Assembly: GCA_036741875.1 (NCBI GenBank)
Contig: DAINRM010000003.1
Location: 6,683-70,682, forward strand
Origin: Patescibacteria group bacterium
GTDB lineage: Bacteria > Patescibacteriota > Minisyncoccia > UBA6257 > HR35
Reading direction: 5' to 3'
DNA: 64,000 nucleotides
Shown here piece after piece: positions 33,999 to 60,288 of this stretch. How positions within the stretch are numbered: the first letter of the stretch is position 1; each line of letters opens with the position of its first letter. Made by a program: the position numbers and the translations under genes. Under the pieces are notes generated by a model. That model did not search any database. It was not told where the DNA came from and was given only the letters and a program-made list of their open reading frames with translations.

Positions 33999-34167
33999 TT
34001 TTTATGTATAAAAGAAAAATTATTATCGCCACATCAATTAAACCTAAAATAAGAAAAAGATAATAGCTTTTATTATAAAAGAATTTTAAATTTAAAAAAA
34101 GAAAAATTGTCAGAATAAAATCTGCTGTTAAAAAACCTAAAAGGAAATTAATCATTTTAAATTTCAA
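33982..34167 (-). CDS. Hypothetical small two-TM membrane protein (61 aa)
   Basis: ORF with two hydrophobic segments. Overlaps the thrS start and the dtd stop. Confidence 0.25.
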   Translation of the reverse strand: MKFKMINFLLGFLTADFILTIFLFLNLKFFYNKSYYLFLILGLIDVAIIIFLLYIKNAKEK

Positions 34168-34573
34168 TGATAAAATTTATCGGCCCGATATTTATATAAG
34201 AAATTTCTAAAAAAGAGCCAAATTCTTTATAAAAAACTTCGTAACCTAAATTTTGCCAAATCTTAACAAAATCATTAAAAATTTTTTTAGCTTTTTCTGG
34301 CTCTAAAGCTTGATTGAAATTTATTCTAAATTTTTCAAAGTTGGCTAACAAAGTAATATTAGAAATAAAAATAAGTATTGGTTTTAAATCTTTAATTTTT
34401 TGGAAAAACTTTCCTTCTTTATCAACAATCTGTAAATTTTCTAAATAATTAACAATTTCTTTTAAATTTTTATTCTCATCTCCCTTTTCAATGCCAACAA
34501 AAATTAAAAAACCCTCATTTATTTCTATTTCATCAATTTTTAAATTTTTAATTTTTTGAATTAAAAGTTTCAT
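34157..34573 (-). CDS. dtd: D-aminoacyl-tRNA deacylase
   Basis: MKLLIQKI..GFLIFVGIEKGD (DTD MIALIQRV..GLLVLLGVEKDD), ILIFISNITLLAN (DTD SQFTLAAD block) and C-terminal INIGPINFIIEI (DTD NDGPVTFWLQV). Confidence 0.7.
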   Translation of the reverse strand: MKLLIQKIKNLKIDEIEINEGFLIFVGIEKGDENKNLKEIVNYLENLQIVDKEGKFFQKIKDLKPILIFISNITLLANFEKFRINFNQALEPEKAKKIFNDFVKIWQNLGYEVFYKEFGSFLEISYINIGPINFIIEI

Positions 34574-36337: not shown

Positions 36338-39300
36338 TTACTCTAGAAATAACATATTTTCTCCGTAAATTTTAAAGAAATAATCCTTATCCTCACATTT
36401 TATAAAGAAATAAACATTTTCTGGCTCTATTATCTCAAACTCATAAATTTTTTGAGGCTCTAAGAAGTAGTTTTCATATTCATCTCGGTAAAATTCATAA
36501 TAGGCAAAATTATATTCGTTTTTGCAAATTTTATCTCCTGTTTCTTTGTATTTTAAATTTAAAATCTTTTCTCCTTCTTCACTTTTAACTTTTATCTTTA
36601 AATCATTAAAACCTTGACCATCATCTCTTTTTTCTATAATTCTCAAATTGATAAGTTGATAACCCTTAGAATTATTTTCAAATGAAATTTTTTTTACTTC
36701 TCCGTTTTCATCTTCAAAAAACTTTATTTCTTTTAAGGGAATTTCGGGGTTATTATTGTATCCTGAAAATTTATAAGATAAAGTCGTTGAGGAGATTTCT
36801 GTTTCTTCTGACTTATAAAGAGAAAGATTAATTACATAATCCAGATTCAAAAAAAGATCACTAGGGCTTAAATCAATTTTAAATGAATTAAAGGTTAACG
36901 GTTTAAATCTTATTTCATCTAGATAAGAATTATTTAAAACATAAAAAAGAGATGTGGTTTCATAATAAGCTGGAGAAAGCCAACTCAAAACAAGTTCAAA
37001 TTGATGATAGGGTTTTTCTTTTGTTTCTTTAATACTATTATCAAAGGAAATTAAGGTATAAGTAGTAGAATCTTTTTTAAGTTCTAAATTGGGTTTATTA
37101 ATAGTTTTAAAAACTTTTTTTACGATCTGAGAATTGTAGGGAACTCCATCAGAAAAAACAAAAGTCTCTCTTATTAAATAGTTATAATCGTCATCAAAAG
37201 CTATATAGCCATTTCCAAGATTTTCTAACTCTTCTTGATTTAAAACTTCTTCATGGCTAATTTTTTTTCTTTCTATCACTTTATTTTCAGGTGGATTTTC
37301 TAAGCAATTAAAATTTTCTACATCACCCCAACATAAATAATCAATTAATTTATCATTATTATCAAAAAGTGCTAAACCATTATCATAAGTTAAACCATAA
37401 ACTGATGATGTAGGATAGATATAATCTGCAGAAATATTAAGGGTATTACATGTTTCCTTATTCACGATTAAAAAATAAGAAAATGGTTGAATAACAGCTT
37501 TAATTTTAGTAGGAGCCACTAGATTTAAATTGCTATAATTTCCATTCCTGGTTATCTTTTTAAGATACCAACCCGAAAGATCTATAGGAAATTCGTTGGG
37601 GTTGTAAAATTCAATAAATTCTCCTTGATTATTATCAACTCCCTTAACTATTTTGACTTTAGAAATAAGTATTTTTCCCTCATTTCTAGCATTTTCAAAG
37701 TTATCTTGTGAATGATCTATTACATGACATTCCGCTATTTGATCTTGAAAACATAAGTTTTTAGGAAATAAAACTTCAGTAGATGTTGAAGCTTGATTTT
37801 CATCATCAATAAGATCTTTAATAAAAACAAAAAACTTTATTGAAGAAGGCAAGCAATTTTCAAAGGGGATTTTAATTAAATAATCTTTAGTAGAAGAGCT
37901 TAAAGAAAAAGTGGAAGTTAGATAATTAAACAAAGAAAGATCGCTTAGGTCTGAAGAGGTTGAAACTTTAATTTCAAAATAATAATTTGATGAAAAATCT
38001 TGATCAGCGTTTAAGGAAAAATTAATTTCCAAGAATTTACCCTCTGATGAAGTTGAAATATTAACATCAAAATTTTGAAAAGTTATTTCACTTAAATCAA
38101 CAAAGTCATTTCGAGGAAGATCGGTAAAGAATGAATTTTTAGGAGAAGGTTGATGAAGCCATAAATCTTTTGAGTTATTATCAGTATCTTGAAAGTTTTT
38201 TCTTTGAATTGATTTATTATCAAAAGATTGAGCTATAAAGGGCGAATTTTCATATTGATAAATTTTTTCAATATTATCTCCATAACCAATTAAATCTGAA
38301 ATTTCTCCATTTGGTTTTCTTAAGATAATAACGTTATTATTAGCGATTGAATAACTTTCTGCATAAGATAAATCTCCTTGATATTTTTCTTTTGTTGATG
38401 AAGAAGTAATAAGGAAATAACTATAAGGTTTTATTTTGCCTTTAAATTTTGAAGAAGGAATAAGAGTTGTTAATTTTGGAGTTGAGTTTGGGTTTTGCCT
38501 TGAGGCATATTTTTCTAAACTCCAGCAAGTTAAATCTATTTCTTCGTTATTAGGGTTATAAAGCTCTATAAATTCATCTTTAGTCTCATCATCAGTTTCA
38601 AATTGAATTTCATTGATAATTATTTTGGGATAGTTTTTATTCTTGTAATCATCACAAAAGTCTTTTTTGCTACTTAAATTTGAAAAACTTCGGCCTCCAC
38701 CATAACTTAAAGTAATAGGCTTATTATTATTATTTTCTTGATTTATATTATTTTGAGAAAGTTCTTTATCAGATGTCTTTTGGGTTGAAGTAGATAAAAT
38801 TTTTGTAGAAGTTGTTAAAATTTTTGAAATTTCATTTAAGACATTTGCTATATTTGAATTTGAATTATCTTGACTTTCTTTGTTTTTACGTTGATTTTTG
38901 GGTTTTTTATAAACCTCGTAAGAATAAAATGTAATGTCTCGATTTGAAGTAATTAAATTTTGATTTAAATCTCGGTTTTGATTTTGATTTTCTAAAGAAG
39001 TTAGCTTTTTGTTTTCTGAAGTTAGGGCTTTATTCGTTTTAACTTCAGTAATGTTTTTGGAAGTAATAATAGCCGGAGTAGAATTAAAATATTTAACTGA
39101 CATAGTCTTAATTGACATTTCTAAAAATCTTTTTTTCATTTCAAGTTCAGCTAATTTCCTTTCTTTTTGTAAAGCAACTTTATCTTTAATACATTCCTTC
39201 TTTTTCTTAATAGGCCAATCATTATCAGTACATTCAGTATAATTTGTTCTAATTTTTGAAAGAGAGCAAGAAAAATCGGTGGAAGGACAATTATAAACAA

Positions 39301-39922
39301 AAATTGTGTCATCTAAAATTTGATCCCATTCTTCACGTTTACTTTGATAATCTTTAAAATATTCTAAATTAGGATTATATCTTCTAATTGCTTTTTCTTC
39401 ATCTTCGTTAATTCCATCATACTTTAATTTTATTGCTGCTGCATAAAGAGAATCTTCTAAATTCCAGGGATTTTTATTTTGAAGTTCTTTATATTGAAGC
39501 CAAGTTGTAGGTTGAAACTGAGTATAGCCAATCCCAAAATCAGGAGAAAATGGAACTTTATTAATATCTAAGCCTAAATTAGAAGTAATTTTTTCTAAAG
39601 TAGAATACTGTTGATGACACCATTGAGTTCGAGCTTCGATGGAATAACAATTTGTACCATTTATAGGTGGTATTAAACTTTTTAAATATTCGCAATACTT
39701 AACACAAGCAGTAATATTTTTATCTTTCGAACCTAAATTTCTACCTAAATCTTTTCCAAATCCACTTTCTTTTTCAATTATTGTCAAAATATAACTTGGT
39801 GTTTTTAATCCCACAATTTTGTATGCCTTATCTATTGCTTCAATAACTCTTTTCCATTCTAAAGCAAAAACTAAACCAATAAATAAAAACAAAAGCAAAA
39901 TAATTGCTTTTGTTTTATTCAT
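36338..39922 (-). CDS. Large (1194 aa) secreted/cell-surface protein: N-terminal MltB-like lytic transglycosylase domain, low-complexity N/S/T-rich linker, and two lamin-tail domains (LTD)
   Basis: Signal peptide MNKTKAIILLLFLFIGLVFA. LT-like block IIEKESGFGKDLG...GIGYTQFQPTTW (compare MltB ES...GAMGQxQFMPSTW). LTD1 KIIINEIQFETDDETKDEFIELYNPNNEEIDLTCWSL. LTD2 KILISKVKIVKGVDNNQGEFIEFYNPNEFPIDLSGWYL. Confidence 0.6.
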   Translation of the reverse strand: MNKTKAIILLLFLFIGLVFALEWKRVIEAIDKAYKIVGLKTPSYILTIIEKESGFGKDLGRNLGSKDKNITACVKYCEYLKSLIPPINGTNCYSIEARTQWCHQQYSTLEKITSNLGLDINKVPFSPDFGIGYTQFQPTTWLQYKELQNKNPWNLEDSLYAAAIKLKYDGINEDEEKAIRRYNPNLEYFKDYQSKREEWDQILDDTIFVYNCPSTDFSCSLSKIRTNYTECTDNDWPIKKKKECIKDKVALQKERKLAELEMKKRFLEMSIKTMSVKYFNSTPAIITSKNITEVKTNKALTSENKKLTSLENQNQNRDLNQNLITSNRDITFYSYEVYKKPKNQRKNKESQDNSNSNIANVLNEISKILTTSTKILSTSTQKTSDKELSQNNINQENNNNKPITLSYGGGRSFSNLSSKKDFCDDYKNKNYPKIIINEIQFETDDETKDEFIELYNPNNEEIDLTCWSLEKYASRQNPNSTPKLTTLIPSSKFKGKIKPYSYFLITSSSTKEKYQGDLSYAESYSIANNNVIILRKPNGEISDLIGYGDNIEKIYQYENSPFIAQSFDNKSIQRKNFQDTDNNSKDLWLHQPSPKNSFFTDLPRNDFVDLSEITFQNFDVNISTSSEGKFLEINFSLNADQDFSSNYYFEIKVSTSSDLSDLSLFNYLTSTFSLSSSTKDYLIKIPFENCLPSSIKFFVFIKDLIDDENQASTSTEVLFPKNLCFQDQIAECHVIDHSQDNFENARNEGKILISKVKIVKGVDNNQGEFIEFYNPNEFPIDLSGWYLKKITRNGNYSNLNLVAPTKIKAVIQPFSYFLIVNKETCNTLNISADYIYPTSSVYGLTYDNGLALFDNNDKLIDYLCWGDVENFNCLENPPENKVIERKKISHEEVLNQEELENLGNGYIAFDDDYNYLIRETFVFSDGVPYNSQIVKKVFKTINKPNLELKKDSTTYTLISFDNSIKETKEKPYHQFELVLSWLSPAYYETTSLFYVLNNSYLDEIRFKPLTFNSFKIDLSPSDLFLNLDYVINLSLYKSEETEISSTTLSYKFSGYNNNPEIPLKEIKFFEDENGEVKKISFENNSKGYQLINLRIIEKRDDGQGFNDLKIKVKSEEGEKILNLKYKETGDKICKNEYNFAYYEFYRDEYENYFLEPQKIYEFEIIEPENVYFFIKCEDKDYFFKIYGENMLFLE

Positions 39923-40613
39923 TTTTTTCTATAAATTTAAAGGTTTTAATGAAATCTTCTAATTTTTCGAGAGTATATCCGGGAATTCCGCCGGTTATTT
40001 CAATTGTTATAACTTTATTATCAAAAAAATACGTATAATTTATAGCTTCTGTAGATAAACCATAAACTTCGCTTTCGATGGATTCTGTATATTTATAAAA
40101 TTCAAGACCGCTATTAGTTAAAAATTTATCTGCATTTTTTACCGCTTGCTTCTTGTTTTCTACAAACTTAGGATCATCAAAAATATAAATACTATAGACA
40201 TGCCACCAAGATCTTGGCATGCCTATTTCATATCTTCCAGGATCATCAAAATAAAGAACTCTTGTATCTCTTGTTTGGTTCAATATTAACTCCTTTGGCA
40301 CTTCTATCTGATAACCTTCGGCATGATTAATAACTAATTTTCTGTCTCCCAGAGGAATGATTTCTACTCCTTCAAGCTGAATGTCTGTTGAAGTAGAAAT
40401 AAAATTTTCAAAACTCAAAATATTAGTTATTTTTTCTGTGTATTTTTCTTCGTCAAATTTTTGAATTCTTTCTATGTCTTTGTTTACTTTTTCAAGCTCT
40501 TTTTGAGTTTCTATTAGTTTTTGTCTTGGAAGATAAACTTGGAAATAATAGAAAGAAGATAAAAAAATTAAAACAAAGATAAAGAATAAAATTAGAAAAA
40601 TTTTCCCTTTCAT
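39915..40613 (-). CDS. Hypothetical membrane-anchored protein (232 aa) with a coiled-coil region and an extracytoplasmic domain
   Basis: N-terminal TM (ILFFIFVLIFLSSFYYF). Overlaps the start of the 1194-aa gene by 8 nt, so the two are likely co-transcribed. Confidence 0.4.
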   Translation of the reverse strand: MKGKIFLILFFIFVLIFLSSFYYFQVYLPRQKLIETQKELEKVNKDIERIQKFDEEKYTEKITNILSFENFISTSTDIQLEGVEIIPLGDRKLVINHAEGYQIEVPKELILNQTRDTRVLYFDDPGRYEIGMPRSWWHVYSIYIFDDPKFVENKKQAVKNADKFLTNSGLEFYKYTESIESEVYGLSTEAINYTYFFDNKVITIEITGGIPGYTLEKLEDFIKTFKFIEKNE

Positions 40614-40703: not shown

Positions 40704-41039
40704 TTATACTTCTTTATTTTGAAATTCTTGTAATTTTTTCTTTTCTTTTATTTTTTCTATCTTTCTTATAGCCCAACTTTCAAGTTTTAAAGATTCGATT
40801 TTAATTCTCATAAGAATTTTTTCAAAAAAATTTAAAAGAAGATAGTAAATAAAATTTAAAAATGGTGAATAAATTTTTTTGGCGAAGTTTAATCTAAAGA
40901 TTCTTATTTTGTTTTGAAGTTTAAGCCATTCAATATAGTCTTTTCTTTCAAGTTTTATATTTTTAGTTTGAAAATAAAGATAAACTATGCCTAAAAATAA
41001 AGAAAGAAAACTTAAGAAGATTAAAATAAAATTAATCAT
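40704..41039 (-). CDS. Hypothetical small membrane protein (111 aa)
   Basis: ORF with an N-terminal TM. Overlaps the tsf start by 8 nt. Confidence 0.35.
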   Translation of the reverse strand: MINFILIFLSFLSLFLGIVYLYFQTKNIKLERKDYIEWLKLQNKIRIFRLNFAKKIYSPFLNFIYYLLLNFFEKILMRIKIESLKLESWAIRKIEKIKEKKKLQEFQNKEV

Positions 41040-42637: not shown

Positions 42638-43372
42638 ATGGAAAACAAAGAAATTCAGAGTATTTATTTTGAAATTAGAGCTGGTGTAGGTGGCGAAGAG
42701 GCTTCTCTTTTTGCTCGTGATCTTTGGAGAATGTATAGTAAGTTTTTTGATAGAAGGGGTTGGAAATATAGAATCTTAGATATCTCTGAAAGCGATTTAG
42801 GTGGCATAAAAACTTTAGTAGCGGAGGTTACTGGTGAACGTGTTTATGATCTTTTAAAACAAGAAGCTGGTGTTCATCGAGTTCAAAGAATTCCTATCAC
42901 AGAAAAAAGTGGAAGAATTCATACCTCTACTGCTTCAGTGGCTATTTTACCAAAACTTTCTTTACCTCAAATTCAAATAAAAGAATCTGATATAGAAATA
43001 GAATTTTTTAGATCTGGTGGACCTGGAGGACAAAATGTAAATAAGGTAGAAACTGCTGTAAGAATAAGACATAAACCCACAGGAATTGTTGTTTCTTGTC
43101 AAGTAGAAAGAAGTCAGCAAAGAAATAGAGAAATTGCTATGGAAATGTTAAAAAACAAAATATGGCAAATGGAACAAGAAAAAATTTTAGGAAACTTAAC
43201 AGAAGAAAGAAGAAAACAAATAGGTTCGCAAGAAAGATCTGAAAAAATTAGAACTTACAACTTTCCTCAAAATAGAGTGACTGACCACAGAATAAATAAA
43301 AGCTGGTATGATTTAGACGAAATTATGGAAGGAAAATTAGATAAAATAATTGAAGCTTTCCAAAAAAAGTAA
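42638..43372 (+). CDS. prfA: Class I peptide chain release factor, RF1-like (PxT = PIT, GGQ present), lacking the N-terminal domain 1
   Basis: 244 aa. Aligns to E. coli RF1 from about residue 107 onward: [22 protein letters not shown]; [20 protein letters not shown]; [28 protein letters not shown]; [13 protein letters not shown]. Only 35 nt separate it from rpmE upstream. Confidence 0.75.
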
Positions 43373-43470: not shown

Positions 43471-44259
43471 TTATAAATATCCGATTTCTTTAAGATAATC
43501 TCTATACTCCCATTCCCAAAGAGTTTTACAACCAAGAAAGGCTTTAAAATCTTCTTCAACATTATCAAAAGCTTTAAGTTCCCATTCTCCTAAAATATCA
43601 CCAAACTTATGATCGCAAAAGGCATCACCACCTTCTATTTTTGAACCCATCTTTCTTAATTTCATCACCGCTCCACATTTTTCACAAATTCTTTTTTGAT
43701 TAATTCTTAAAACATATCTCTTTTCTAAGGGTTTAAGAAGAGGAATTTTTCTTCCTTTTTCATCTCTAAAAAATCCTTCTTCATTTAAGGCCATAAAATA
43801 AGCTGATGTTTGAAGTCTATAATCCTCGTAAATACTTTGAGAAGTTTTAATATCAATTAAAGAAAATTGCCCATCAAGTTCACCAATAATATCAAAAGTT
43901 CCAGCATAACGATGAAGAAAATGAACTGTTTTTTTCTCTAACCAGTCTTCTCTGGAAAAAAAAGAGTGATTTTTAAGAAAATCTTCGAAAGCTTTTTTAA
44001 TACCTTCATATTCTGGAGGAACAATAATTTGTCTTCTTTGTATAAAGCTTTCAATAATTTCATGAATTATTTTCCCTTCATCAGCTGCTTTTATTTTTTT
44101 GTTAGTAGCTTCTTTAAAGTTTGGTGCCTCAGCATAAAAATAGTAAAGAGCAGGCTTACTTTTAATTTCACAAATTTTTGTTACCCGTGGATACCAGGTG
44201 TTATCTATTATATAACCAAATTCTTTTTTAAATTCTTCAAGATTATTTATTTTATTCAT
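43471..44259 (-). CDS. PD-(D/E)xK nuclease of the RecB/Cas4-like family with a putative 4-Cys cluster
   Basis: GTFDIIGELDGQFSLIDIKTS (D...D/E-x-K), QTSAYFMAL (QxxxY). Cys pattern: one N-terminal Cys (RVTKICEIK) plus CEKCGAVMKLRKMGSKIEGGDAFC at the C-terminus. Confidence 0.6.
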   Translation of the reverse strand: MNKINNLEEFKKEFGYIIDNTWYPRVTKICEIKSKPALYYFYAEAPNFKEATNKKIKAADEGKIIHEIIESFIQRRQIIVPPEYEGIKKAFEDFLKNHSFFSREDWLEKKTVHFLHRYAGTFDIIGELDGQFSLIDIKTSQSIYEDYRLQTSAYFMALNEEGFFRDEKGRKIPLLKPLEKRYVLRINQKRICEKCGAVMKLRKMGSKIEGGDAFCDHKFGDILGEWELKAFDNVEEDFKAFLGCKTLWEWEYRDYLKEIGYL

Positions 44260-44262
44260 CTT

Positions 44263-44940
44263 TTAAAAATATCTTAAATAATTCGTCCAAAGTTCATAAA
44301 TTTTAGCTGTGGTTAAAACATCGCCTAAAGCGTAATAAACTAAACTTTTATAATCTTTATTTTTTATAATATCTCTTACTTTTTTACCATCAAATTTTTC
44401 CTTAGGATCTTCTAAGCCAAAAGAAAAGGCTGTCAATTTTAAACTTAGTTTTTGAATTCTATTATTAAAACTTAGTTTTTCATAAAGATCGATATGATAT
44501 TCTTTATCTAAAATAGCGTAGGTTGGTCTAATTTTGTGTTTTAAAGAACGATAAAGTAAAAAAGGTATATCAAATTTATTACCATTGAAAGTGATAATTT
44601 CCTGATAATTAGGAACAATTTCCCAAAATTTTTTTATTAATTCTTCTTCTGAGCTAAACCTTTTAAAATCTATCAAATTTTCTGACCAATCTTCAATTTC
44701 CTCTTTACTTTGAAAATAAACAGCTCCTCTTTGAGTATCTGGATTATAAAAACTAATAGCCACTATTTCGCTAAATTGTGGTAAGAGAGAGATTTTTTCA
44801 TTAATAATTTCAATAAGATCTTCTCTTGATTTTTCTTTGAAATCATTAGAAAATTTTTCTAAAAGATATTCTTGAATTTCTATGGGAAGTTCAGCAAATT
44901 CTGGTCCATAAGTTTCGATGTCGAAAATTAATTTTTGCAT
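44263..44940 (-). CDS. DEDDy-type 3'-5' exonuclease (RNase H-like fold, related to the PolB exonuclease domain; YprB/RNase_H_2-like)
   Basis: Exo I LIFDIETYG, Exo II ITFNGNKFDIPFLLYRS, Exo III YYALGDVLTTAKIYE. Confidence 0.65.
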   Translation of the reverse strand: MQKLIFDIETYGPEFAELPIEIQEYLLEKFSNDFKEKSREDLIEIINEKISLLPQFSEIVAISFYNPDTQRGAVYFQSKEEIEDWSENLIDFKRFSSEEELIKKFWEIVPNYQEIITFNGNKFDIPFLLYRSLKHKIRPTYAILDKEYHIDLYEKLSFNNRIQKLSLKLTAFSFGLEDPKEKFDGKKVRDIIKNKDYKSLVYYALGDVLTTAKIYELWTNYLRYF

Positions 44941-48259: not shown

Positions 48260-49660
48260 ATGAAAAAAATTGAAGACATAAAACCTAAAAGCTTAGCTTT
48301 TTTTAATTTTAAAAGAAAAAATAATTATTTTTATTTTTTAAATGCTAAAGATTTAAAAATCATTTTTTTAATCTTACTTTTTATAGGAATTAATTTTGCC
48401 TTTGCTCCGCTTTCATTCACCCAAATAACACAAAAAACTCTTCCTCCTGAACTTGAAGCTAAAAAGAAATCATTAGAAGCCCAGCTTCAAGAAGTTTTAA
48501 AAGAAATAGAAAATTACAAAAAAGAAATAAACAAAATAAGAAGTCAAAAAAGAAGCATACAGCAAGAAATAAACTTAGTCAATTCACAGATAAAAAAAAC
48601 AGAACTTGAAATTCAAGCAATTAATTTACAGATAAAAAATTTAAATAAAAAAATAGAAGAAACAAAAAAATCAATTAACCTTACTGAAGAAAAAATTAAA
48701 AAATCTAAAGATTATCTTTTAGTTTCATTAAGATATTACTATCAATTAAGACAAAGAAGCATTATTGAAGTATTTTTAGCCGAAGCAAGACTTTCGGATT
48801 ATTTTAGTCAATTTTATTATCTCCAAAAAGTTCAAGAAAGTATTAACAACGAATTAGACAAATTAAAAGAACTTAATGAGATTTTGAATAAACAAAAAAC
48901 TAAATTAGAAAATCAACTTGAAGAGCAAAATAATCTTTTAATGCTTTCAAAAATAAAATACCAGGAGCTTCAAGAGTTAAAAAATGAAAAAAATAAACTT
49001 TTGGCTCAGGCACAAAAACTTGAAAGAGAATATAGCAAAAAATTAGAAGAGTCAGAAAGAACTGCAACACAGATAAGACAAGAAATTTATAAATTAGCAG
49101 GAGGAGCTGGACCAATTACTTTTGGTGAGGCTTATGAATATGCAAAAATCGTAGAAAAATATACTGGCGTAAGGCCAGCTTTTCTTTTAGCTGTTTTACA
49201 TTATGAGTCAAAATTAGGACAAAATGTAGGAACTTGTCATTATAAAGAAGCCATGAAACCATCGGAAAGACCTATTTTTGAAGAGATAGTTAAAGAACTG
49301 GGTTTAGATCCTAATAAAATGCCTGTTTCTTGTAAACCTTGGTATGGTTGGGGTGGTGCTATGGGTCCTGCTCAATTTATACCCTCAACATGGATGAAAT
49401 ATAAAGAACGAATTGCTAGAATTACCGGAAATAATCCGCCTTCTCCTTGGAATATTTTAGATTCTTTTGTAGCTGCTGGACTTTATCTTAAAGATGCTGG
49501 AGCAGACGCAAGAAATTACTCTTCAGAATGGAAAGCAGCTATGATATATTTTGCTGGCTCTAATTGGAACAATCCTTCTTTAAGATTTTATGGAGATGAT
49601 GTAATGTCAATTGCTCAAAGATTTGAAGAAGATATCAGAATTTTGGAAAGAAGTAAGTAA
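48260..49660 (+). CDS. Secreted coiled-coil protein with a C-terminal MltB-like lytic transglycosylase domain
   Basis: N-terminal TM/signal, then a long heptad-rich region (about residues 60-270). C-terminal AFLLAVLHYESKLGQNVG...GWGGAMGPAQFIPSTW (compare MltB ES...GAMGQTQFMPSTW). Confidence 0.6.
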   Translation: MKKIEDIKPKSLAFFNFKRKNNYFYFLNAKDLKIIFLILLFIGINFAFAPLSFTQITQKTLPPELEAKKKSLEAQLQEVLKEIENYKKEINKIRSQKRSIQQEINLVNSQIKKTELEIQAINLQIKNLNKKIEETKKSINLTEEKIKKSKDYLLVSLRYYYQLRQRSIIEVFLAEARLSDYFSQFYYLQKVQESINNELDKLKELNEILNKQKTKLENQLEEQNNLLMLSKIKYQELQELKNEKNKLLAQAQKLEREYSKKLEESERTATQIRQEIYKLAGGAGPITFGEAYEYAKIVEKYTGVRPAFLLAVLHYESKLGQNVGTCHYKEAMKPSERPIFEEIVKELGLDPNKMPVSCKPWYGWGGAMGPAQFIPSTWMKYKERIARITGNNPPSPWNILDSFVAAGLYLKDAGADARNYSSEWKAAMIYFAGSNWNNPSLRFYGDDVMSIAQRFEEDIRILERSK

Positions 49661-58024: not shown

Positions 58025-58678
58025 TTATCTTAAACTGAAGAAAAAATTTTCAACAAGTTTCACTACTGTAAAAGAAGAAAAGGAAATTAAAATCCCTATA
58101 GCAATATAAATAAAGTTTTTATGGATTTCAGAAGATTTCTCTGGTTTAGCTATATAATTAAAACCTGTCCAAATAAGCATAATAACTGTTGCCAAAAAGG
58201 CAGCTTTATAAAAAAGGCTTAGGAATAAATAAATAAGATAAAAAAAACATAATGACCAGGCATTTTGAGAAAGAGTAGAAGTCTCAAAAACTGAAGGAAT
58301 CTCGATACCACCACATTTTATACTTTCAGGAGGATTGTATTCTGGCAACCCTTCGGCAAAAACAAAATTAAAAATATTGAAAGAAATTAAACGAGAAATA
58401 AGTAGAACTAGAGCATAAGAAAGAAGAGCTAAGACAAGTCCTACTGCTCCCCATAAAATTCTTTTATGAATTTCGCTTGATTTTTCAGGTTTAGACATAT
58501 AAAGAAAACCAGCCCAAAAAATCATTAAAGTAGAAAAGGCAATAGCTAAGGTACTTGTGATAATTAAAACTTGATTAAAAATATAAAAGAAGCAATCCAG
58601 AAAATTTCTATTTTCACATAAAATAGGAGGCAATTCTGGAAAGGTGTTTGTTGATATTTGAGCTAAAATTTCAAACAT
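58025..58678 (-). CDS. Membrane protein (217 aa) containing two tandem copies of the Cys-pair + TM-loop-TM module
   Basis: Internal repeat: CENRNFLDCFFYI...FWAGFLYMSKPEKSSEIHKRILWGAVGLVLALL and CGGIEIP...SLCFFYL...IWTGFNYIAKPEKSSEIHKNFIYIAIGILISF. Confidence 0.5.
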   Translation of the reverse strand: MFEILAQISTNTFPELPPILCENRNFLDCFFYIFNQVLIITSTLAIAFSTLMIFWAGFLYMSKPEKSSEIHKRILWGAVGLVLALLSYALVLLISRLISFNIFNFVFAEGLPEYNPPESIKCGGIEIPSVFETSTLSQNAWSLCFFYLIYLFLSLFYKAAFLATVIMLIWTGFNYIAKPEKSSEIHKNFIYIAIGILISFSSFTVVKLVENFFFSLR

Positions 58679-58696
58679 TCATCAATTTTATTAAGT

Positions 58697-59065
58697 TTAT
58701 TGAGTTTGAAATCCTAAAAGTCTTCCTATTAGCCAAGCTATTGCAAAAGAAAGAAGTGCTACTATAATACCGACAATAGCAAAAAGAATTTTACTTCTAG
58801 CCTTACCAACTTCTTCTGCTTTTTCTCCAGAAGTCATAAATGCCCAAGCGGCTCTAAAGATTTCGAAAGCACCCCACGCTAAGGCTATAAAACCCAGTAA
58901 ATAAAAAACGCTTCTAACAACACAAATTATTCTTTGAATTATATCTCCATATTGAGTGATACAGTTAGAAATAATAGGAATTTCCTCTATAGGACCTTGA
59001 GCATAAGTTGGAACAATATGAAAAATAGTTAAAAATAAGGTTAGAATTATAATTAATTTTCTCAT
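58697..59065 (-). CDS. Small secreted two-TM membrane protein (122 aa), paralog family member
   Basis: Signal peptide MRKLIIILTLFLTIFHIVPTYAQG. Cys pair CITQYGDIIQRIIC. TM, loop FMTSGEKAEEVGKARSKILFAIVG, TM. Confidence 0.5.
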   Translation of the reverse strand: MRKLIIILTLFLTIFHIVPTYAQGPIEEIPIISNCITQYGDIIQRIICVVRSVFYLLGFIALAWGAFEIFRAAWAFMTSGEKAEEVGKARSKILFAIVGIIVALLSFAIAWLIGRLLGFQTQ

Positions 59066-59137
59066 TTTTTAATCTACAAAAATTTCGACCCTTTTTAAAT
59101 TTTAAAATAAATTTTAAAATAAAAAAACAAAAATTTG

Positions 59138-59533
59138 TTAAAAACTCGGACCTCCAAAAATAAATCTAATTAATGTAAAAACTCCGGAAATAATAAGCAA
59201 AACAATATAACCAACAACAGCATTTTTAATATATCTCCAACCGATATCCCTTGCTTCTGGTTTAAAAGTAATTAGCAAAAACCAAAACCCTCCAATAATA
59301 ATTAAGGCAGTCAGTGAAAAAGGAGCTAAATATAGAATAAAATTCCAAACTCTTTGTATAAATTCCATTAAAGAAACAAATTCACAAGGTTCTTTACCAA
59401 ATATACCTGGAGGACAAGGATTTATTGTTACTTCTGTCCAGGTAACAACAACTTCTCCTGGTTTTTTCATTTCTATCTGAGCCAAACTTAAACTGAAGAT
59501 TAAAAATAAAGTTAAAAATAAAAATTTTCTCAT
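59138..59533 (-). CDS. Small secreted two-TM membrane protein (131 aa), paralog family member
   Basis: Signal peptide MRKFLFLTLFLIFSLSLA. Cys pair NPCPPGIFGKEPCEF. TM, loop TFKPEARDIGWRYIKNAVVG, TM. Confidence 0.5.
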   Translation of the reverse strand: MRKFLFLTLFLIFSLSLAQIEMKKPGEVVVTWTEVTINPCPPGIFGKEPCEFVSLMEFIQRVWNFILYLAPFSLTALIIIGGFWFLLITFKPEARDIGWRYIKNAVVGYIVLLIISGVFTLIRFIFGGPSF

Positions 59534-59922
59534 GGTCCGAAAATTATTCTTTCTATTTGATCTTTAATAAGATCTCCTAAGAGAACAATAACAATACCTA
59601 CCGGAGTCCAAGTAAGTATTTTCCAGGCTGTTGCTATATTTTTTAGACCAAAAAATGGTGTTGTTATAAGATAAATAGCTGCTCCAAAAAAAGCGATTAC
59701 CATTAAAATTAAGGCAAAACTTTTAAGAAGTTCTAAAATATCAAAAATACATTTAAAAATTTGTTCTGTCGCTGATTTAGCTCCACTTCCACATCTTAAG
59801 CTAGAATAAATAGGTTCTCTAAAAAAATTCAGAATCGAATAAAATGGATCTTGGTTTTCTTCACTTGAAAAAACGAAGTTTATCACAAAGATTATCAAAA
59901 ATAAAAAAATTATTTTTTTCAT
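59530..59922 (-). CDS. Small secreted two-TM membrane protein (130 aa), paralog family member
   Basis: Signal peptide MKKIIFLFLIIFVINFVFS. Cys pair RCGSGAKSATEQIFKC. TM, loop PFFGLKNIATAWKILTWTPVG, TM. Confidence 0.5.
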   Translation of the reverse strand: MKKIIFLFLIIFVINFVFSSEENQDPFYSILNFFREPIYSSLRCGSGAKSATEQIFKCIFDILELLKSFALILMVIAFFGAAIYLITTPFFGLKNIATAWKILTWTPVGIVIVLLGDLIKDQIERIIFGP

Positions 59923-59928
59923 TATGCT

Positions 59929-60288
59929 TTAATATTTTAATTTAGGACCAAAAAATTCCAAAACAAAATCAAAAATAACACCAATACTCAAAAGTAAAAT
60001 ATAACCTACAATAGCTGTTTTAATCATATCCTTACCTCTTTTTTCTAAATCAGGTCTCGGACCTCCGAACATCCATAAAAAGGAGCCTATAACGGAAACC
60101 AAAACAGAAAACCAAAAACCAATAAAAACAGCAAAAGAAAGAAGTCTTCTAATATTTATAAAAATTTCTTCAACAGTGCAAGGGTCATTTTGACAATAAA
60201 TAATTCCTCTAGAAAAATCTTCATTTTGGAGAAAGGCTAAATTAGGTAAAGTAAGAAAAAAAAGAATAAATAAAATAATTTTTCTCAT
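59929..60288 (-). CDS. Small secreted two-TM membrane protein (119 aa), paralog family member
   Basis: Signal peptide MRKIILFILFFLTLPNLAF. Cys pair YCQNDPC. TM, loop FGGPRPDLEKRGKDMIKTAIVGY, TM. Confidence 0.5.
   Translation of the reverse strand: MRKIILFILFFLTLPNLAFLQNEDFSRGIIYCQNDPCTVEEIFINIRRLLSFAVFIGFWFSVLVSVIGSFLWMFGGPRPDLEKRGKDMIKTAIVGYILLLSIGVIFDFVLEFFGPKLKY

What the first reader, a model, noticed from the sequence alone, without database searches (positions are those of the whole stretch)
36338..40613. Giant surface protein combining an MltB-like lytic transglycosylase with two lamin-tail domains, plus a co-transcribed anchored partner
The 1194-aa secreted protein has an N-terminal lytic-transglycosylase-like domain (ES...GIGYTQFQPTTW). 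It also has a long N/S/T/Q-rich low-complexity linker and two lamin-tail domains (EFIELYNPNNEEIDLTCWSL and EFIEFYNPNEFPIDLSGWYL). In bacteria, lamin-tail domains occur in extracellular nucleases and DNA-uptake-associated proteins.

The upstream 232-aa membrane-anchored protein overlaps it by 8 nt. I do not know of a described fusion of a peptidoglycan-cleaving module to lamin-tail domains. A plausible role is local cell-wall remodelling tied to surface attachment, DNA uptake or host contact.
Basis: partly seen in the sequence, partly recalled or inferred. Interest (0 to 1): 0.55.

Follow-up and report, generated by a model that had tools for sequence, protein, structure and literature searches.

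The report
Wall-cutting enzyme on a lamin-tail scaffold
A tiny, probably host-dependent bacterium (Patescibacteria) encodes a large exported protein that joins a cell-wall-cutting enzyme head to a lamin-tail scaffold, and close relatives carry a different head with a different small partner gene, so it looks like an exchangeable tool for attacking or remodelling cell envelopes.

Summary
A 1194-aa ORF (36338-39922, minus strand) and a 232-aa ORF (39915-40613, minus strand) overlap by 8 nt. Each has one N-terminal hydrophobic segment.

**Domains of the large protein**
- Two lamin-tail domains (Pfam LTD, E=1.7e-26).
- Glu52 aligns with the catalytic Glu162 of E. coli MltB and is kept in all 24 homologs.
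- After the head come a Cys-rich helical segment, a 150-aa N/S/T/Q-rich linker, LTD1, a beta domain, LTD2 and two variable FN3-like domains.

- The family is confined to a narrow Paceibacteria clade, several members from hot springs.
- The partner lies upstream in 7 of 7 loci with this head.
- Relatives with up to 88% identical bodies carry a phospholipase-C-like head instead, with their own upstream partner genes. Others have no head.
- The gene pair evolves much faster than its neighbours (50-67% vs 93-97% identity).

**Best reading (inferred):** an exported envelope-degrading enzyme on a lamin-tail scaffold, with a head-specific membrane-tethered partner, probably aimed at a host cell wall. 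A competence link is not supported in this window.

New variant of a known kind. Interest is moderate.

The parts
39915..40613 (-). Partner gene, 232 aa: N-terminal transmembrane anchor, short coiled coil, then an extracytoplasmic globular part. It overlaps the large gene by 8 nt.
   Evidence: ORF. The only hydrophobic segment is at residues 1-28. There are 43 homologs, confined to the same clade. It is upstream of every lytic-transglycosylase-type locus examined. No Pfam, NCBIfam, PDB, PHROGs or PADLOC match.
40275..40397 (-). Near-invariant core of the partner (residues 73-113: STSTDIQLEGVEIIPLGDRKLVINHAEGYQIEVPKELILNQ).
   Evidence: In an alignment of 23 homologs that are 36-83% identical overall, about 30 of these 41 columns are invariant. 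Translation checked.
39886..39916 (-). 13-bp RNA hairpin followed by a U-rich stretch. It starts 6 nt after the ATG of the large gene and just after the partner's stop codon.
   Evidence: Flagged as terminator-like. It is present in the window, L007, L004 and L008, with C-G to U-A changes on both arms. It is absent in L009 and L005. It may partly be a by-product of Lys codons followed by Leu/Phe codons.
39860..39922 (-). Sec-type signal peptide or signal anchor (residues 1-21, MNKTKAIILLLFLFIGLVFA|LEW).
   Evidence: It is the only hydrophobic segment of the protein. The VFA-L motif is conserved in the family. Cleavage is inferred, not tested.
39323..39859 (-). Lytic-transglycosylase head (residues 22-200), a MltB/Slt35-like (family 3) core. 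The predicted catalytic Glu52 is encoded at 39767-39769.
39113..39322 (-). Cys-rich helical segment (residues 201-270) with four conserved cysteines (C212, C219, C231, C244), ending in a long helix.
   Evidence: Invariant columns. Helices in the model. Cysteine positions.
38663..39112 (-). Low-complexity linker (residues 271-420): 47% N/S/T/Q, 13% K, no cysteine, poorly conserved.
   Evidence: Composition. About 30% identity across homologs.
38123..38662 (-). Lamin-tail domain 1 with its extension (residues 421-600). This is the most conserved part of the body.
   Evidence: Pfam LTD best stretch is residues 430-548. About 80% identity within the family and 75% to relatives with a different head.
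37673..38122 (-). Middle domain between the two lamin-tail domains (residues 601-750). No family assigned.
   Evidence: No Pfam hit. About 51-57% identity in the family. Its fold was not predicted.
37148..37672 (-). Lamin-tail domain 2 (residues 751-925).
   Evidence: Second Pfam LTD stretch. Aligns to LTD1 at 32% identity, E=6e-17.
36338..37147 (-). Variable C-terminal region (residues 926-1194) made of beta-sandwich (FN3/Ig-like) domains, plus the stop codon.

Best explanation
The two genes form a cassette of a Paceibacteria (Patescibacteria/CPR) bacterium. It makes a Sec-exported, cell-surface enzyme together with a head-specific, membrane-tethered partner.

**Shown here**
- The large protein starts with a signal sequence.
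- It carries a family-3 (MltB/Slt35-like) lytic-transglycosylase core with its catalytic Glu intact.
- A Cys-rich helical segment and a ~150-residue flexible linker follow.
- The body is LTD1, a middle domain, LTD2 and two FN3-like domains.
- The partner is a single-pass membrane protein with a near-invariant extracytoplasmic core.
- The partner is always encoded just upstream when the head is a lytic transglycosylase.
- Relatives place a phospholipase-C-like head, or no head, on the same body, with different upstream genes.

**Inferred**
- The signal peptide is cleaved.
- The conserved LTD1 and the rest of the body hold the protein at the cell surface, and the variable distal domains contact the outside.
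- The head, on its long tether, cleaves MurNAc-GlcNAc bonds in peptidoglycan.
- The peptidoglycan cut is most likely that of the host cell the bacterium lives on, which would open the host envelope for nutrient or lipid access.
- The partner binds the head and acts as its anchor and/or inhibitor, protecting the producer's own wall.
- The 8-nt overlap and the 5' hairpin keep synthesis of the two proteins coupled.
For: **Domain identities**
- LTD: E=1.7e-26, two copies.
- Catalytic Glu52 aligns with MltB Glu162, together with the GYxQFxP(S/T)(S/T) motif, and is conserved in 24 of 24 homologs.

**Export**
- Each protein has a single N-terminal hydrophobic segment, and the large protein has 18 cysteines in even-numbered groups for most domains.

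**Partner goes with the head, not the body**
- It is upstream in 7 of 7 lytic-transglycosylase-type loci (window, L007, L008, L004, L009, L010, L089).
- It is absent from 4 of 4 loci with a phospholipase-C-like head or no head.
- Partner subtype follows the subtype of a variable insert in the head, even within one body clade.

**Exchangeable head**
- The alternative head hits B. cereus phospholipase C at the Zn-binding motif, E=0.007.
- Bodies of the two types interleave, with up to 88% identity.
- Loci with the alternative head have their own conserved upstream genes.
- Two genomes whose ComEC and YebC proteins are 94% identical carry different heads.

**Fast evolution**
- Against L007, which has identical gene order, the large protein is 67% identical and the partner 50%. 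Five of the six conserved neighbours (S2, EF-Ts, RF, LepA, ThrRS) are 93-97% identical; Dtd is 46%.

**A second, ordinary enzyme for the cell's own wall**
- The genome has a separate 466-aa lytic transglycosylase of the widespread coiled-coil type and its own peptidoglycan-synthesis genes.

**Literature**
- Lytic transglycosylases and phospholipases of Patescibacteria have been proposed to breach host envelopes (PMC11665869, PMC8080830).
- Bacterial lamin-tail domains typically accompany membrane-associated hydrolases (PMC6085458, citing Mans et al. 2004).
Against: - No activity, localisation or expression data exist.
- The Pfam SLT_2 score is just below the curated cut-off.
- Only about 152 residues superpose on Slt35, so the substrate groove may differ.
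- The head sits at the N-terminus next to the signal sequence. If that sequence is an uncleaved anchor, the enzyme would face the producer's own wall.
- In this window the cassette lies inside a co-directional run of translation genes, from S2 to the S10 operon. That looks more housekeeping than weapon-like.
- The head-partner covariation could reflect simple genetic linkage of adjacent sequences.
- The partner has no similarity to any known inhibitor or immunity protein.
- Whether one genome can hold both head types was not resolved.
- The host and lifestyle of this organism are unknown.
Confidence: 0.45

Rival explanations
1. It is a self-directed 'space-making' autolysin. The signal sequence stays as a membrane anchor. 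The head opens the producer's own peptidoglycan locally, so that the long lamin-tail/FN3 body or another surface structure can pass through the wall. The partner positions or restrains the enzyme.
For: - The head is next to the N-terminal hydrophobic segment.
- The organism makes its own peptidoglycan: MreB/C, PBP2, MraY, MurA and FtsW are in the window.
- In HR35 and L089 the cassette lies directly upstream of ftsW.
- In L004 it lies next to a Mur ligase and a LytR-family gene.
- The window context is housekeeping genes.
- Related N-terminal heads occur fused to T4SS-pilin-like domains in other proteins.
Against: - A separate lytic transglycosylase of the common 430-500-aa type is already present for housekeeping.
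- Exchange of the head for a phospholipase-C-like domain on the same body is hard to fit with self-wall remodelling.
- The cassette diverges far faster than its neighbours.
- The flanking genes differ between genomes.
- The family is restricted to a narrow clade.
Confidence: 0.3
2. It is mainly a structural or adhesive surface protein. The head has become a glycan-binding module with little or no catalysis, and the lamin-tail and FN3 domains form a fibre or surface layer.
For: - The C-terminal domains are generic FN3/Ig sandwiches.
- Headless versions of the protein exist in L011 and L012, so the body can stand alone.
- Placement among highly expressed translation genes fits an abundant structural protein.
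- Giant adhesin-like surface proteins are typical of CPR bacteria (PMC8080830).
Against: - The catalytic Glu-Ser motif and the second active-site motif are invariant in all 24 members, and the head core is the best-conserved segment (93% identity over residues 121-150).
- The alternative head keeps a Zn-ligand motif.
- This pattern indicates selection on catalysis.
Confidence: 0.12
3. It is a competence accessory. The head opens the wall for a DNA-uptake pilus or channel, and the lamin-tail domains bind extracellular DNA.
For: - ComEC lies immediately downstream in L004 and about 3 kb downstream in L005, where PilB is upstream.
- Lamin-tail domains occur in extracellular nucleases such as ExeM (PMC6085458).
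- A pilin-like gene lies about 6.5 kb away in the window.
Against: - The Pfam gene tables that cover most of the 64-kb window list no ComEC.
- ComEC is adjacent in only 1 of 7 lytic-transglycosylase-type loci.
- The lamin-tail domain was dispensable for extracellular DNA degradation by ExeM (PMC6085458).
- A phospholipase-C-like alternative head does not fit DNA uptake.
Confidence: 0.08

Closest known systems
Family-3 lytic transglycosylases (E. coli MltB/Slt35, P. aeruginosa SltB1/SltB3; Pfam SLT_2 PF13406, GH103)
   Same: - The catalytic Glu sits in an E-S/T motif.
- The GYxQFxP(S/T)(S/T)-aromatic motif is present.
   Different: - Only about 150 residues, a minimal core, superpose, at 17-21% identity.
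- The Pfam score is just below the cut-off.
- The host is a monoderm CPR bacterium.
- A Cys-rich helical extension follows the core, and the domain is fused to a roughly 900-residue linker-plus-body (lamin-tail and FN3-like domains).
- It has a dedicated upstream partner.
Bacterial lamin-tail-domain/hydrolase fusion proteins (Mans et al. 2004; for example the extracellular nuclease ExeM)
   Same: Exported proteins in which lamin-tail domains accompany a hydrolytic domain. The role of the lamin-tail domain is unresolved; membrane or surface targeting has been suggested (PMC6085458).
   Different: - The hydrolases described so far are metallo-beta-lactamase, EEP/synaptojanin and calcineurin-like phosphoesterases. 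A peptidoglycan lytic transglycosylase was not among them.
- No paper in the searched library pairs the two terms.
Coiled-coil plus C-terminal SLT_2 proteins of Patescibacteria (paralog at window 48260-49660)
   Same: The catalytic core is homologous (profile E=1e-12) and shares the LGLD-x-NK-x-P insert. These proteins are the most common relatives of the head domain.
   Different: They are 430-500 aa with the enzyme at the C-terminus. They have no lamin-tail domain and are widespread, so they are presumably the housekeeping enzyme.
Polymorphic toxin / effector-immunity systems (for example the T6SS peptidoglycan effector Tse3 with Tsi3)
   Same: - A conserved delivery or scaffold part carries exchangeable enzymatic domains among close relatives.
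- Each enzymatic domain has its own adjacent small gene.
- The module evolves fast.
   Different: - The variable domain is N-terminal and the small gene is upstream, not C-terminal and downstream.
- Only a Sec signal is present, with no T5, T6 or T7 secretion genes nearby.
- An immunity function for the partner is untested.

Membership tests
Family-3 lytic transglycosylase (MltB/Slt35, Pfam SLT_2) | Catalytic glutamate in the E-S/T motif (Glu162 of E. coli MltB) | tested here: met
   The profile alignment puts Glu52 (EKES) on MltB Glu162 (GVETRWG). The motif is conserved in 24 of 24 homologs.
Family-3 lytic transglycosylase (MltB/Slt35, Pfam SLT_2) | Second active-site motif, G-Y-x-Q-F-x-P-S/T-S/T-aromatic | tested here: met
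   GIGYTQFQPTTW aligns with AMGYGQFMPSSY of MltB. It is invariant in the family.
Family-3 lytic transglycosylase (MltB/Slt35, Pfam SLT_2) | Lysozyme-like fold closest to Slt35/SltB structures | tested here: met
   [not shown]
Family-3 lytic transglycosylase (MltB/Slt35, Pfam SLT_2) | Score at or above Pfam's gathering threshold | tested here: not met
   23.0 bits against a cut-off of 24.3. Homolog P0026 reaches 24.5 bits.
Family-3 lytic transglycosylase (MltB/Slt35, Pfam SLT_2) | Full multi-domain Slt35 architecture | tested here: inconclusive
   Only 152-154 of about 310 Slt35/SltB1 residues superpose. The remainder of the 241-residue model consists of other helices.
Family-3 lytic transglycosylase (MltB/Slt35, Pfam SLT_2) | Non-hydrolytic cleavage that yields 1,6-anhydro-MurNAc products | not testable with these tools
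   This needs a biochemical assay.
Lamin-tail domain proteins (Pfam LTD PF00932) | Significant profile match above the curated cut-off | tested here: met
   93.2 bits against 34.3, E=1.7e-26, in two stretches. The two copies align at E=6e-17.
Lamin-tail domain proteins (Pfam LTD PF00932) | Ig-like beta-sandwich fold of the domain | not tested
Polymorphic toxin / effector-immunity systems | Exchangeable enzymatic domain on a conserved scaffold among close relatives | tested here: met
   Bodies of proteins with lytic-transglycosylase and phospholipase-C-like heads interleave, with up to 88% identity. Two genomes with 94% identical ComEC and YebC proteins carry different heads.
Polymorphic toxin / effector-immunity systems | Adjacent cognate gene that changes together with the enzymatic domain | tested here: met
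   The 232-aa partner occurs only with the lytic-transglycosylase head (7 of 7 against 0 of 4 loci). The 71-75-aa and 179-204-aa genes occur with the phospholipase-C-like head. Subtypes covary. A protective function was not tested.
Polymorphic toxin / effector-immunity systems | C-terminal toxin with a downstream immunity gene and a dedicated secretion system | tested here: not met
   The head is N-terminal and the partner is upstream. Only a Sec-type signal is present, and no T5, T6 or T7 secretion genes are nearby.
Specialised lytic transglycosylases of transport machines (VirB1/EtgA/FlgJ type) | Encoded inside the gene cluster of the machine it serves | tested here: not met
   The flanking genes are translation genes here, ftsW in HR35, and Mur ligase and ComEC in L004. 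The nearest T4SS-pilin-like genes are about 18 kb away.

The most novel reading that the evidence does not exclude
This may be a previously undescribed kind of polymorphic surface-effector system in Patescibacteria. A conserved lamin-tail scaffold would display exchangeable N-terminal envelope-degrading heads: a peptidoglycan lytic transglycosylase or a phospholipase-C-like enzyme. Each head would be swapped by recombination together with its own upstream membrane-anchored immunity or anchor protein, and would be used to breach and harvest the wall and lipids of host cells.
Probability: 0.3. Interest if true: 0.75.

Novelty: new variant of a known kind. Interest (0 to 1): 0.55.

Why it matters
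How ultrasmall Patescibacteria obtain wall precursors, lipids and other nutrients from their hosts is an open question. Lytic transglycosylases and phospholipases have been proposed as the tools, but only from gene lists (PMC11665869, PMC8080830).

This family gives that proposal a concrete, testable molecular form. Both enzyme types sit on one shared lamin-tail scaffold. Each has a cognate partner gene. The set shows signs of exchange and fast evolution among close relatives.

It also offers a tractable case for the still-unknown role of bacterial lamin-tail domains, because LTD1 is the best-conserved part of an otherwise fast-evolving protein. If the partner proves to be a specific inhibitor, it would be a new class of lytic-transglycosylase regulator.

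Tried and rejected
- **PDB sequence searches:** neither the whole protein nor the head profile found anything. Only fold comparison linked the head to Slt35/SltB.
- **NCBIfam:** no hit.
- **Word-based homolog search with the head alone:** it returned only fragments of split genes.
- **Partner:** no credible Pfam, NCBIfam or PDB match. The weak DivIC/DUF2621-type hits only reflect its transmembrane segment plus coiled coil.
- **C-terminal region:** only generic FN3/Ig matches, so no functional clue.
- **Phage or defence origin:** rejected. No significant PHROGs or PADLOC hit (one E=0.01 partner match to an unknown-function PHROG) and no phage genes nearby.
- **Competence link:** considered and downgraded. 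ComEC is not listed in the Pfam gene tables that cover most of the window and is adjacent in only one lytic-transglycosylase-type locus.
- **The 111-aa membrane ORF (40704-41039):** rejected as part of the cassette. It overlaps tsf, is 93% identical in L007, and a similarly placed 104-aa gene (homology not tested) follows tsf in L091, where the cassette is elsewhere.
- **Promoter scan:** no more matches than in shuffled sequence, so uninformative in this AT-rich DNA.
- **Literature:** no paper combines 'lamin tail domain' with Patescibacteria or with lytic transglycosylase.

Full report
**1. Observation**

ORF 36338..39922 (-) encodes 1194 aa and ORF 39915..40613 (-) encodes 232 aa. They overlap by 8 nt (ATGAATAA).

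The window has about 28% G+C. An identical protein sits on a 76-kb metagenome contig. Relatives are labelled Paceibacterota, Parcubacteria, Minisyncoccia or 'bacterium HR35'. The organism is therefore a member of the Patescibacteria (CPR), class Paceibacteria. Several relatives appear to come from hot-spring assemblies; this last point is my own knowledge of those MAG names, not a tool result.

**2. Domain identities**

Lamin-tail domains:
- Pfam LTD is unambiguous at 93.2 bits, E=1.7e-26, in two stretches.
- The two copies align with each other at E=6e-17.

The N-terminal domain is borderline by sequence:
- Pfam SLT_2 gives 23.0 bits against a cut-off of 24.3. One homolog reaches 24.5 bits.
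- There is no NCBIfam hit.
- Neither the protein nor a 12-sequence profile finds anything in PDB by sequence.

Structure prediction resolves the question:
- The AlphaFold2 model of residues 22-262 has pLDDT 83 and pTM 0.73.
- Its eight best Foldseek PDB matches are all family-3 lytic transglycosylases (Slt35/MltB, SltB1, SltB3, SltB2), each with probability 1.0.
- I fetched E. coli MltB and aligned it to the family profile. Glu52 falls on the catalytic Glu162 (the identification of Glu162 as catalytic is my own knowledge of Slt35). GIGYTQFQPTTW falls on AMGYGQFMPSSY.
- The E-x-E-S motif is present in all 24 homologs with this head.

**3. Rest of the anatomy**

- Each protein has only one hydrophobic segment, at the N-terminus.
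- The large protein has 18 cysteines, in even-numbered groups for most domains. This fits an extracytoplasmic, disulfide-bonded protein.
- Residues 201-270 are helical with four invariant cysteines.
- Residues 271-420 are a poorly conserved linker with 47% N/S/T/Q.
- Conservation is uneven. The head core (93% over residues 121-150) and LTD1 (about 80%) are well conserved. The linker and the C-terminal domains are only about 30% identical.

**4. Family and distribution**

- About 50 full-length homologs of 1000-1270 aa exist.
- An exhaustive profile search with the head found 177 proteins at E<=0.001. Only four 50%-identity clusters combine this head with lamin-tail domains.
- Most relatives of the head are 430-500-aa proteins with a coiled coil and a C-terminal SLT_2 domain. 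One lies in this window at 48260-49660 (+). Its Pfam SLT_2 score is 25.1 bits, above the cut-off, and it hits the head profile at E=1e-12.
- Other relatives put the head at the N-terminus of proteins with CARDB, He_PIG, fn3, PKD, BNR or T4SS-pilin domains.
- Among 185,579 species-representative genomes, only six loci carry the family.

The combination of a lytic transglycosylase with lamin-tail domains is thus a clade-specific architecture. It falls within a broader habit of fusing this head to surface-domain arrays.

**5. The partner**

- It is a transmembrane anchor plus coiled coil plus globular domain. Its core (residues 73-113) is near-invariant across 23 homologs that are otherwise 36-83% identical.
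- It matches no known family or structure.
- Its 43 homologs are confined to the same clade. Many sit on contigs whose lengths match those of the large protein's homologs.
- It lies immediately upstream of the large gene, overlapping or abutting it, in all seven loci with a lytic-transglycosylase head for which I had DNA: the window, L007, L008/HR35, L004, L009, L010 (fragmented) and L089.
- The wider flanks differ between genomes. Here they are S2-Tsf...LepA. In HR35 and L089 the downstream gene is ftsW. In L004 the flanks are a Mur ligase and ComEC.

The conserved unit is therefore the two-gene cassette.

**6. Exchangeable head**

- Eight homologs share the body (LTD1 about 75% identical) but have an unrelated N-terminal domain.
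- Their profile hits Bacillus cereus phospholipase C at the Zn-ligand motif, E=0.007. That is weak but specific.
- Loci with this head lack the 232-aa partner. Instead they have their own conserved upstream pair, of 71-75 aa and 179-204 aa, which are 50% and 34% identical between two loci.
- Two further loci (L011, L012) encode headless versions.
- Clustering on the body interleaves the head types. One phospholipase-C-like protein (P0039) has a body 88% identical to that of a lytic-transglycosylase-type protein (P0013). Another pair (P0036 and P0009) is 82% identical.
- Two contigs from one metagenome have 94% identical ComEC and YebC proteins yet carry different heads.
- Within the lytic-transglycosylase type, three variants of an insert in the head (residues ~73-102) go with three variants of the partner's C-terminal half. 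This holds even inside a single body clade.
- Against L007, which has identical gene order, S2, EF-Ts, RF, LepA and ThrRS are 93-97% identical. The large protein is 67% identical and the partner 50%.

**7. Mechanism**

What is shown:
- an exported protein with an intact lytic-transglycosylase active site, tethered by a long linker to a lamin-tail/FN3 body;
- a head-specific, membrane-anchored partner;
- a module made of head plus partner that differs between close relatives and evolves fast.

What is inferred: the head degrades peptidoglycan, the body holds or targets the protein at the surface, and the partner anchors or inhibits the head.

I favour a host-directed role (confidence about 0.45) for four reasons:
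- A housekeeping lytic transglycosylase already exists in the genome.
- An alternative phospholipase-like head makes sense for attacking a foreign envelope but not the producer's own.
- The cassette shows the fast divergence expected of a host-interaction protein.
- The literature proposes exactly these two enzyme classes as tools of Patescibacteria against host envelopes (PMC11665869, PMC8080830).

The main rival is a self-directed space-making autolysin (about 0.3). It is supported by the head's position next to the N-terminal hydrophobic segment, by neighbours such as ftsW and a Mur ligase in some genomes, and by the housekeeping context here.

Two further readings are less likely. A mainly structural or adhesive role (about 0.12) is opposed by the invariance of the catalytic motifs. 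A competence role (about 0.08) is opposed by the absence of ComEC from the Pfam gene tables that cover most of the window and from most loci.

**8. Comparison with what is known**

- The head works like, and by fold and active-site motifs belongs with, family-3 lytic transglycosylases. It is a minimal, divergent version that just misses Pfam's cut-off.
- The whole protein fits the known theme of bacterial lamin-tail domains attached to exported hydrolases (Mans et al. 2004, as summarised in PMC6085458). A lytic transglycosylase was not among the described partners of the domain.
- No paper in the searched library pairs the two terms.
- The exchange of head and partner resembles polymorphic toxin-immunity systems in logic. 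It fails their defining layout, which is a C-terminal toxin, a downstream immunity gene and a dedicated secretion system.

**9. Verdict**

I rate it a new variant of a known kind, with interest 0.55. The most novel reading still allowed is a lamin-tail-scaffolded system of exchangeable envelope-degrading heads with cognate partners, used against hosts (probability about 0.3).

Noticed in passing
window 48260-49660 (+): A 466-aa protein with a transmembrane segment, a long coiled coil and a C-terminal SLT_2 lytic-transglycosylase domain (25.1 bits, above the cut-off). It is a paralog of the head of the large protein (profile E=1e-12). It represents the common 430-500-aa type found across Patescibacteria and is probably the housekeeping enzyme.
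   Followed up: partly
L005 6001-9753, L091 6001-9762 (proteins P0036-P0051): Relatives with the same lamin-tail body carry a phospholipase-C/P1-nuclease-like Zn-motif head (HLLHLLEDLGVPDHARGDSH; B. cereus PLC E=0.007). Each has its own conserved upstream genes of 71-75 aa and 179-204 aa. Whether the head cuts lipids or nucleic acids is unknown.
   Followed up: partly
L011 5728-8544 and L012 1868-4168: These are headless versions of the protein. By eye, the N-terminus of L011 looks like the partner's transmembrane segment and coiled coil joined to the Cys-rich segment that normally follows the lytic-transglycosylase core. That would fit a deletion fusing the two genes.
   Followed up: partly
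window 39886-39916 (-): A 13-bp hairpin with a U-rich tail starts 6 nt after the start codon of the large gene. It is kept in four loci, with C-G to U-A changes on both arms. It could enforce translational coupling to the partner or attenuate transcription after it. It could also be a by-product of Lys codons followed by Leu/Phe codons in a signal peptide.
   Followed up: partly
window 34157-34573 (-): The D-aminoacyl-tRNA deacylase gene is only 46% identical to its counterpart in L007, while the flanking LepA and ThrRS genes are 93-94% identical. This suggests replacement or unusually fast change of this small gene.
   Followed up: no
window 42638-43372 (+): The peptide-chain release factor (PCRF plus RF-1 domains) is only 244 aa, and the L31 gene lies about 35 nt away. 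It appears to lack the usual N-terminal domain 1. L091 has a similar 250-aa version.
   Followed up: no
window 58025-60288 (-): A cluster of small genes (119-217 aa) has weak T4SS_pilin/TrbC matches. It sits beside a solute-binding-protein gene and upstream of ftsW. In HR35 and L089 the cassette occupies the position directly upstream of the same ftsW-IPPT-glycogen gene block.
   Followed up: no
window 40704-41039 (-): A 111-aa membrane protein overlaps the end of tsf by 8 nt. It is 93% identical in L007, and a similarly placed 104-aa gene (homology not tested) follows tsf in L091. It belongs with the S2-Tsf genes, not with the cassette.
   Followed up: partly
window 43471-44940 (-): Two adjacent genes encode a PD-(D/E)XK-like protein (262 aa, faint match) and a PolB-exonuclease/RNase-H-like protein (225 aa). 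Their function is unknown.
   Followed up: no
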